The notes under the pieces: model-generated
The model's input: only the letters and a program-made list of their open reading frames with translations
What the model was told of the DNA's origin: nothing
Databases searched by the model: none
Position numbers and translations under genes: made by a program
Part shown: piece after piece, positions 14,629 through 63,958 of the stretch
Numbering within the stretch: position 1 is the first letter of the stretch
Layout: each line of letters starts with the position of its first letter
Assembly (NCBI GenBank): GCA_964016885.1
Contig: OZ024766.1
Span: 21,080,001-21,144,000 of the forward strand
Source of the DNA: Eledone cirrhosa
Lineage: Eukaryota
Length of the DNA stretch: 64,000 nucleotides
Direction: 5' to 3'

Positions 14629-15559
14629 GGAGGCACATGGCTTAGTGGTTAGAGCATTGGGCTTGCAATCGAAAGGTTGTGAGTTCAATTCTCAGACCGC
14701 GTGATGCGTTGTTTCCTTGAGCAAGACACTTTATTTCACATTGCTCCAGTTTACTCAGCTGTAGAAATGAGATGATAGGGACTGGGGTCCCTATCATTCC
14801 ACTGTAAAGTGTTCGTGGAGGTGCCACGGCAAAAAAACACCCAGCCCTCACTGTAAAGTGGTCGTGGAGGTGCCACGGCAAAAAAGCACCCAGCACTCAC
14901 TGTAAAGTGGTCGTGGAGGTGCCACAGCAAAAAAGCACCCAGCACTCACTGTAAAGTGGTCGTGGAGGTGCCACAGCAAAAAAGCACCCAGCACTCACTG
15001 TAAAGTGGTCGTGGAGGTGCCACAGCAAAAAAGCACCCAGCACTCACTGTAAAGTGGTCGTGGAGGTGCCACGGCAAAGAAGCACCCAGCACTCACTGTA
15101 AAGTGGTCGTGGAGGTGCCACGGCAAAAAAGCACCCAGCCCTCACTGTAAAGTGGTCGTGGAGGTGCCACGGCAAAAAAGCACCCAGCACTCACTGTAAA
15201 GTGGTCGTGGAGGTGCCACAGCAAAAAAGCACCCAGCCCTCACTGTAAAGCAGTCGTGGAGGTGCCACAGCAAAAAAGCACCCAGCACTCACTGTAAAGT
15301 GGTCGTGGAGGTGCCACGGCAAAAAAGCACCCAGCACTCACTGTAAAGTGGTCGTGGAGGTGCCACGGCAAAAAGGCACCCAGCACTCACTGTAAATGAG
15401 GTTGGTGTTAGGAAGGGCATCCAGCTGTAGAAATCAAGCCAGAATCAGTTCCCGTATGAGCAAGACAAGGTCAGCCGACCAGACACTGCCCACAACAGGA
15501 CAACCCGTCTAACCCATGCTAGCATGGAAGAACGGACGTAAAACAGTGATGATGATGAT
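14629..15559 (+). mobile_element. Composite SINE-VNTR element, 12 x 49-bp units, tail type A
   Basis: Head GGAGGCACATGGCTTAGTGG...GAGTTCAATTC (Pol III A/B boxes), hairpin ATGATAGGGAC/GTCCCTATCAT, VNTR, tail ending ACGGACGTAAAAC..(GAT)n. Confidence 0.92.

Positions 15560-63958: not shown

What the first reader, a model, noticed from the sequence alone, without database searches (positions are those of the whole stretch)
14629..63161. SVA-like composite retroposon: tRNA-like head + hairpin + variable 49-bp VNTR + RTE-type tail
Seen: about 13 highly similar copies in 64 kb. Each complete copy has Pol III A/B boxes, a CTTGAGCAAGACACTT central domain, a hairpin, a 49-bp VNTR and a (GAT)n-terminated tail. 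VNTR counts are about 1, 3, 4, 4, 5, 6, 6, 8, 10, 12 and 22, plus about 40 in a 48-bp variant. Established: SINEs borrow LINE 3' ends for mobilisation, and VNTR-containing composites are best known from hominoid SVA and gibbon LAVA. Inference: a young, very abundant invertebrate SINE-VNTR family whose internal array changes length during or after retrotransposition. This is the best candidate for an undescribed system in the window, though I cannot check whether it is already catalogued.
Basis: partly seen in the sequence, partly recalled or inferred. Interest (0 to 1): 0.75.

Follow-up and report, generated by a model that had tools for sequence, protein, structure and literature searches.

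The report
Chromosome-biased minisatellites inside ordinary SINEs
A common short jumping element in what is likely an octopus genome carries one copy of a 49-base piece almost everywhere, but on one small chromosome about a third of its copies hold 3 to 30 of them, likely grown in place after insertion, so this is a new case of a known way minisatellites arise, not a new SVA-like element.

Summary
The repeats and counts are real, but the SVA-like reading fails. The element is a young tRNA-headed SINE (at least 13,373 copies). Its 49-bp 'VNTR' unit comes from the 3' UTR of an intact LINE, which has two diverged units. Genome-wide the SINE nearly always has one unit: 3,880 exact one-unit copies against 129 with two or more. 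Of those 129, 70 lie on contig C27 (0.75% of the genome), which holds this window. Arrays share variants within themselves, not between loci, and form no clade, which points to growth after insertion. The 22-unit array sits in a LINE fragment and the 48-bp array has no SINE head. Twenty of 23 other minisatellites tested in the window are likewise mostly single-copy elsewhere. This matches SINE-derived satellites of squamates and retrotransposon-UTR satellites of legumes. What stays notable is the strong bias to one chromosome rich in C2H2 zinc-finger motifs, with hints of exchange between copies. The scan noted a related 48-bp satellite elsewhere in this genome (e1-9585604).

The parts
14629..15559 (+). 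SINE copy, long tail, 12 units (array 14800-15387)
14629..14703 (+). tRNA-like head with A/B-box-like motifs (type example)
   Evidence: Rfam RF00005 31.2 bits at 14638-14695; sequence
14704..14771 (+). central domain, CORE-like by recall only
   Evidence: conserved in all 11 headed copies and 88% alike in another SINE family at 14278-14342
14772..14797 (+). 11-bp stem, 4-nt loop hairpin; marks the join between SINE body and LINE-derived part
   Evidence: sequence; formed in the predicted fold of the one-unit copy
17067..17846 (+). SINE copy, short tail, 10 units (17238-17730); four neighbouring units share a private variant
29609..30189 (-). SINE copy, short tail, 6 units (29724-30018)
34300..35110 (+). 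3' fragment of the second LINE family, donor of the short tail end; carries its own 80-bp array at 34542-34869
   Evidence: 94% to L218/L221; L221 ORF has RVT_1; TRF
35338..36799 (+). 3' fragment of the partner LINE, not a SINE; its two-unit UTR repeat has become 22 units (35541-36621)
   Evidence: 91-95% to L196 on both sides of the array
40397..42475 (-). headless array of about 39-40 older-type 48-bp units joined through one hybrid unit to a young long tail
   Evidence: tail 95% to that of the first copy
46053..46396 (+). SINE copy with a single unit (46224-46272) between two 9-bp direct repeats: the usual genome-wide form
48936..49521 (-). SINE copy, short tail, 6 units (49054-49350)
50545..51030 (+). 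5'-truncated SINE copy, 5 units (50674-50918); last three units share a private two-base variant
56434..56912 (+). SINE copy, short tail, 4 units (56605-56800)
59265..59944 (+). SINE copy, short tail, 8 units (59436-59826) with a duplicated two-unit block
60434..60631 (-). SINE copy cut off after half a unit, directly behind the next copy
60648..61057 (-). SINE copy, short tail with a deletion, 3 units (60740-60886)
62620..63161 (+). SINE copy, long tail, 4 units (62791-62986)

Best explanation
These are copies of a young tRNA-headed SINE whose 3' half matches the 3' UTR of an intact LINE, and whose single 49-bp unit likely grew into arrays at the DNA level after insertion, far more often on this chromosome than elsewhere. 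Shown: the LINE UTR has two diverged units, the SINE usually has one, that unit is flanked by a 9-bp direct repeat, multi-unit copies are about 3% genome-wide and over half of them lie on C27, units within an array share variants, and LINE fragments and unrelated repeats are amplified in the same region. Inferred: Pol III transcription and mobilisation by the LINE's reverse transcriptase; a first duplication by misaligned repair or recombination at the direct repeat (or from a two-unit copy); further growth by unequal exchange, slippage and gene conversion, partly with other SINE or LINE copies as donors; and a chromosome-level cause (likely high recombination or repair activity). The arrays are likely neutral by-products.
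For: One unit 705 + 3,175 against two or more 51 + 78 exact matches; 70 of 129 on C27, 22.4 Mb of 2,996 Mb. Unit-to-unit junctions 4,130 against unit-to-tail 44,338; only 88 of the 4,130 on C1-C11, which are 73% of the genome. Copies with 3 or more units: 8 of 25 on C27 outside the window, 0 of 51 off C27, Fisher p=6e-5; 9 of 10 in the window. Variant pairs shared within arrays 624, permutation mean 222, maximum 329 of 1,000 (34 arrays, 296 units). None of 50 arrays identical; longest shared run 3 non-consensus units. Array-bearing C27 copies need 21 label changes on a head+tail tree of 99 rows against a shuffled mean of 21.6, and have the same divergence as one-unit copies, 1.9% against 1.8%. 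Partner LINE: 1,040-aa ORF with endonuclease, RT and PHD domains followed by two units and the long tail; SINE positions 172-285 are 93% identical to it. 20 of 23 other arrays tested in the window have units found single more often than tandem in 154 off-C27 loci (some loci overlap). Raw reads of two other samples show the 49-base back-joint with 9 letters fitting either side, at about 5-6% of local depth.
Against: Mean unit distance within arrays (2.45) equals that between arrays (2.44) and unit number does not track divergence (rho -0.07, n=36); pure late, in-place growth from one unit would give tighter arrays, so growth began near insertion time or units come from other loci. The tree is weakly resolved (5 of 92 branches starred). 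Arrays do occur on other chromosomes (59 of 129, including 8 on unplaced contigs). C27 has more minisatellite bases than other small chromosomes (2,981 against 1,266 per 10 kb) but not more arrays (3.0 against 2.9, p=0.77), so its general instability is less exceptional than its SINE arrays. Two-unit SINEs of the LINE type exist (3 of 51) and may be mobile. Transcription, mobilisation, length polymorphism and recombination rate were not measured.
Confidence: 0.8

Rival explanations
1. Arrays are patchworks built mainly by ectopic gene conversion: a broken SINE copy on C27 is repaired from another SINE or two-unit LINE copy and gains units from it. This refines rather than replaces the best explanation and may run alongside it.
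For: The end variant typical of the LINE's first unit is in 21 of 44 SINE arrays but in 3 of 67 one-unit copies, and only 1 of those 21 keeps a LINE second-type unit, whereas 4 of 6 LINE arrays do. The 48-bp old-type array is joined to a young tail by a hybrid unit. Within-array diversity equals between-array diversity.
Against: Descent from two-unit copies with loss of the second unit, or recurrent mutation, gives the same pattern; array-private variants show much growth is local. No donor locus was identified.
Confidence: 0.35
2. An SVA-like composite: a multi-unit master element retrotransposes with its array, perhaps a C27-resident subfamily that inserts locally.
For: 9 of 10 complete window copies have 3 or more units; within-array diversity is as old as the family.
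Against: 97% one-unit copies; no shared array code; no diagnostic head or tail variant and no clade; both tails, LINE fragments and unrelated repeats are amplified alike.
Confidence: 0.06
3. Reverse-transcriptase slippage at the 9-bp repeat makes arrays at the moment of insertion.
For: Arrays look about as old as the copies.
Against: Would not depend on chromosome; cannot give variants shared by some units of one array or duplicated blocks. In LAVA, new integrants showed no VNTR change (PMC4432496, passage).
Confidence: 0.07
4. Arrays form at similar rates everywhere but are purged less on C27 (relaxed selection or reduced deletion) rather than made more often there.
For: The data are a standing census and cannot separate gain from loss; short two- to four-unit copies occur on all large chromosomes.
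Against: The first unit of C27 arrays carries the internal-unit letter at position 6 in 37 of 70 cases against 705 of 3,880 one-unit copies, while off C27 that letter hardly changes the multi-unit rate (14 against 705, 45 against 3,175; the one-unit counts are genome-wide), which suggests more turnover on C27.
Confidence: 0.15
5. Assembly artefact.
For: No laid contig or read spans a whole window array.
Against: Units differ by substitutions in ordered patterns; the unit-to-unit joint is in raw reads of two other samples.
Confidence: 0.03

Closest known systems
SINE-derived satellites (sSat) of squamates (Vassetzky et al. 2023, PMC10702118; parts 1-4 of 5 of the text read)
   Same: One preferred segment of a tRNA SINE is tandemly amplified at many loci, keeps SINE ends, ranges from a few to very many units and is unevenly placed on chromosomes.
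   Different: Here the unit is 49 bp and LINE-UTR-derived, both SINE ends are usually kept (a minor form in squamates), LINE fragments amplify too, and the bias is to one chromosome, stronger in its distal part, rather than to subtelomeres generally; the first 3.5 Mb of C1 has 100 tail junctions and no exact unit-to-unit junction.
Satellites from short tandem arrays in LTR retrotransposons of Lathyrus sativus (Vondrak et al., PMC7004042; abstract only)
   Same: A short repeat carried by a dispersed retrotransposon expands only in favourable chromosome regions.
   Different: LTR elements and primary constrictions there; a LINE/SINE pair and one small chromosome here.
TE-derived minisatellites of the human genome (Ahmed and Liang 2012, PMC3389668; abstract only)
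   Same: Minisatellites arise from young TEs and grow by local duplication.
   Different: Human families; the abstract reports no single-chromosome bias.
SVA/LAVA VNTR composites (Lupan et al. 2015, PMC4432496; abstract and passages)
   Same: Non-autonomous retroposon with an internal repeat remodelled at DNA level through microhomology.
   Different: In SVA/LAVA the multi-unit VNTR is a standing module, ordered by subfamily and transposed with the element; here the mobile form has one unit (sometimes two) and a tRNA head.
Octopus CORE-SINEs OR1/OR2 (Ohshima and Okada 1994, not seen; cited in PMC4824008, PMC4758252, PMC5804259, passages)
   Same: tRNA-derived SINE with a conserved central domain in what is likely an octopod.

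Membership tests
tRNA-derived SINE | tRNA-related head with A and B boxes | tested here: met
   Rfam RF00005 above gathering score in 3 of 11 heads; box-like motifs read from the sequence against a recalled consensus
tRNA-derived SINE | short, non-coding, dispersed in many copies | tested here: met
   one-unit copy 344 bp; 13,373 exact hairpin-to-unit junctions
tRNA-derived SINE | 3' end shared with a partner LINE, simple-repeat tail | tested here: met
   92-93% to L196 UTR; short tail end 85-87% to L218/L221; (GAT)n ends
tRNA-derived SINE | target-site duplications | tested here: inconclusive
   9 copies examined; flanks are microsatellites, no clear duplication
tRNA-derived SINE | Pol III transcription | not testable with these tools
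   no RNA holder listed
CORE-SINE / OR1, OR2 | about 60-bp CORE domain homologous to MIR/OR consensus | not testable with these tools
   resemblance is recalled only; no reference sequence obtained
RTE-clade LINE (partner) | single ORF with AP endonuclease and RT, short UTR, tandem-repeat tail | tested here: met
   1,040-aa ORF with Exo_endo_phos, RVT_1, PHD in L196 and L200; feature list recalled
RTE-clade LINE (partner) | RT groups with RTE references in a tree | not tested
   120 listed homologues carry no clade name
SVA/LAVA-type VNTR composite | multi-unit VNTR is a standing part of the family | tested here: not met
   3,880 one-unit against 129 multi-unit exact matches
SVA/LAVA-type VNTR composite | ordered repeat-unit arrays shared by elements of a subfamily | tested here: not met
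   0 of 50 arrays identical, longest shared run 3 variant units; no clade
SVA/LAVA-type VNTR composite | microhomology-driven change of unit number at DNA level | tested here: met
   9-bp direct repeat at unit borders, array-private variants; the mechanism itself is inferred
SINE-derived satellite (sSat) | tandem units shorter than the SINE, with SINE sequence at one or both ends, at many loci | tested here: met
SINE-derived satellite (sSat) | subtelomeric bias | tested here: inconclusive
   44 of 70 C27 hits lie beyond 17 Mb of 22.4 Mb, but the start of C1 lacks arrays and 4 samples near other ends gave 2 one-unit headed copies only

The most novel reading that the evidence does not exclude
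One small cephalopod chromosome, rich in C2H2 zinc-finger genes, acts as a chromosome-wide tandem-repeat amplifier: thousands of near-identical SINE copies serve as a built-in reporter, stable on most chromosomes but turned into minisatellites there at more than ten times the rate, partly by exchange between SINE and LINE copies; the same machinery would drive turnover of the zinc-finger arrays themselves.
Probability: 0.3. Interest if true: 0.62.

Novelty: new member of a known kind. Interest (0 to 1): 0.36.

Why it matters
It removes a false 'invertebrate SVA' and shows how one window can mislead: 9 of 10 local copies have arrays, about 3% do genome-wide. What remains is a clean natural experiment on minisatellite birth, with the same 49-bp substrate placed thousands of times across a genome and a sharp dependence on chromosome. 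If C27 proves to be a domain of high repeat turnover tied to the cephalopod C2H2 zinc-finger expansion, the SINE copies make that directly measurable.

Tried and rejected
Composite gap patterns could not be used in this genome, so per-element counts rest on exact matches and miss diverged copies. A C27-specific subfamily: no diagnostic column and no clade. A perfect 9-bp repeat as the main trigger: off C27 it changes the multi-unit rate little (14 against 705; 45 against 3,175). A dispersed mobile subfamily with a first-type end followed by a consensus unit: 1,408 junctions, only 100 in about the first 1.84 Gb, so not a major mobile form. Target-site duplications: not readable. Length polymorphism at 62310-63430: no contig or read spans the locus; RAD reads pile on the repeat only. 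Expression: no RNA holder listed. Runs of other organisms had small shares; the one laid (X5) gave only short pieces, so no claim on species range. Reference consensus for OR1/OR2/CORE: not obtained; unseen SINEBase supplements and one unsearched file of PMC4824008 may name this family. Nine paper searches listed no paper on internal arrays in cephalopod SINEs or on a chromosome bias of them; Repbase, Dfam and subscription journals were not searched. Whole-element fold z=-2.38 is modest and says nothing on the arrays.

Full report
Setting. The window is G000:C27:21080001-21144000 in a 2,996-Mb assembly, 1.2 Mb from the end of a 22.4-Mb contig. An octopod origin is my inference from genome size, repeat types and zinc-finger arrays; earlier notes of this scan say the same. 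I did not determine the species.

Observation. BLAST of the element's parts finds 11 headed copies and 2 headless arrays. Rfam tRNA hits 3 heads. An 11-bp stem precedes the first unit. Two tails occur: a long one at 15397, 36631, 40559 and 62996 and a short one elsewhere.

Where the unit comes from. Of 30 loci picked by the unit-to-tail junction at the start of C1, most carried a headless two-unit form with the long tail (21 such copies). Upstream lies a long ORF; L196 and L200 hold a 1,040-aa ORF followed after about 30 bases by two diverged units and the long tail, with endonuclease, RT and PHD domains. The SINE from position 172 onward is 92-93% identical to this UTR; the last 60 bases of the short tail match a second LINE family at 85-87%, a fragment of which is in the window at 34300-35110. 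So the 'VNTR' is not a separate module: it is the start of the LINE-derived tail. The SINE's single unit has the front of the LINE's first unit and the end of its second, as a deletion between the two would give (inference). The 22-unit array lies inside a fragment of that LINE, and the 48-bp array has the unit of an older relative. RTE clade membership rests on architecture and recall, not on a tree.

Genome-wide form. Exact patterns from hairpin through unit 1 into the tail give 705 and 3,175 matches; into a second unit, 51 and 78. All 129 multi-unit places were listed: 70 on C27, 51 on other chromosome-scale contigs, 8 on small contigs; 44 of the 70 lie beyond 17 Mb. One-unit copies are spread (68 of the 705 on the 443-Mb C1). 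Unit-to-unit junctions number 4,130, of which 88 lie on C1-C11 (2,175 Mb), against 44,338 unit-to-tail junctions of SINE and LINE together; the window alone has 41 against 7. C27 may hold more copies per base than average (17 in 300 kb against 15 in 380 kb of position-chosen samples), so the excess per copy is smaller than per base; the direct comparison is 8 of 25 against 0 of 51 copies with 3 or more units (the 51 comprise 15 position-chosen, 23 head-search and 13 tail-junction copies, duplicates with identical flanks dropped). Raw RAD reads of two other samples show the 49-base back-joint in 1,313 and 1,076 reads at a depth near 22,000, from few start points, with LINE copies included: arrays are real and a minority.

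Growth in place. Units of one array share private variants and duplicated blocks; 624 shared pairs against a permutation maximum of 329. No two of 50 arrays match. Heads and tails of array copies are not distinct (weak tree). Twenty of 23 other window minisatellites tested are segments found mostly single elsewhere. C27 samples hold 2,981 minisatellite bases per 10 kb (n=20) against 963 on C1-C20 (n=19) and 1,266 on C21-C26 (n=12); three C28 samples were wholly tandem repeat, and the number of arrays on C27 equals that on C21-C26.

What does not fit simple local growth. Diversity within arrays equals that between arrays, and unit number is unrelated to divergence. A variant of the LINE's first unit is in 21 of 44 SINE arrays, 3 of 67 one-unit copies, and 20 of those 21 arrays lack the LINE's second unit type. 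The 48-bp array joins old-type units to a young tail. Exchange between copies, or origin from two-unit copies with loss of one type, would explain this; I could not tell them apart.

The chromosome. Seven of 50 C27 stretches of 10 kb have 10 or more C2H2 finger motifs; none of 38 stretches elsewhere has more than 4 (simple pattern, six frames). Coleoids are known to cluster C2H2 genes and to distribute repeats unevenly among chromosomes (PMC9068888, passages), but orthology of C27 was not tested and any causal link is speculation.

Comparison. The closest match is the SINE-derived satellites of squamates (PMC10702118, parts 1-4 of 5 read), then retrotransposon-derived satellites that expand regionally in Lathyrus (PMC7004042, abstract) and human TE-derived minisatellites (PMC3389668, abstract). 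SVA/LAVA share DNA-level microhomology remodelling but have a standing, subfamily-ordered VNTR (PMC4432496, abstract and passages), which was tested and not met. SINEBase treats internal duplications as variants of one family (PMC3531059, passage). OR1/OR2 are known octopus CORE-SINEs (passages); the original papers were not seen and identity is untested.

Verdict. Real, partly misread. New member of a known kind; interest 0.36, carried by the chromosome bias.

Noticed in passing
window 46420-46482 and 51070-51144 (+): Two short exons match the CAF1 ribonuclease family (E 0.039 and 6e-06), PARN-like by recall; several SINE copies sit in this gene's introns, and the tails at 46396 and 51030 end about 25-40 bases before a splice acceptor.
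   Followed up: partly
window 297-2881, 12709-14139, 5475-7854, 45365-45912, 52132-52545, 42713-43104, 47272-48008, 34542-34869 and others: Many other TE families also turn one preferred segment (61-136 bp) into arrays, often twice or more in the window.
   Followed up: partly
L112, L113, L125, L095, L206, L207, L210 (C27): C2H2 zinc-finger arrays are common on C27.
   Followed up: partly
L121 (C27:12,000,001-12,010,000) and C27 about 21.20-21.21 Mb: Arrays of 48-bp relatives of the same unit reach satellite size, 10 kb or more.
   Followed up: no
L192-L194 (C28): All three 10-kb samples of the 136-Mb contig C28 are wholly tandem repeat.
   Followed up: no
L017-L028 (C19, C20): One-unit SINE copies with near-identical flanks recur about every 100-500 kb on C20 and on C19: a large segmental or tandem duplication.
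   Followed up: no
L196, L200, L195 (start of C1): The partner LINE has uninterrupted ORFs of about 1,040 aa with a PHD finger after the RT domain, and is dense in the first 0.5 Mb of C1: likely recently active.
   Followed up: partly
window 60434-61057 (-): Two SINE copies lie head to tail; the second breaks off in the unit and runs into LINE sequence.
   Followed up: no
window 14278-14342 (-) and L005, L029: Other SINE families share the central domain with different heads and tails; one search also shows 41-42-bp back-joints in the head and central domain, a second duplication-prone segment.
   Followed up: no
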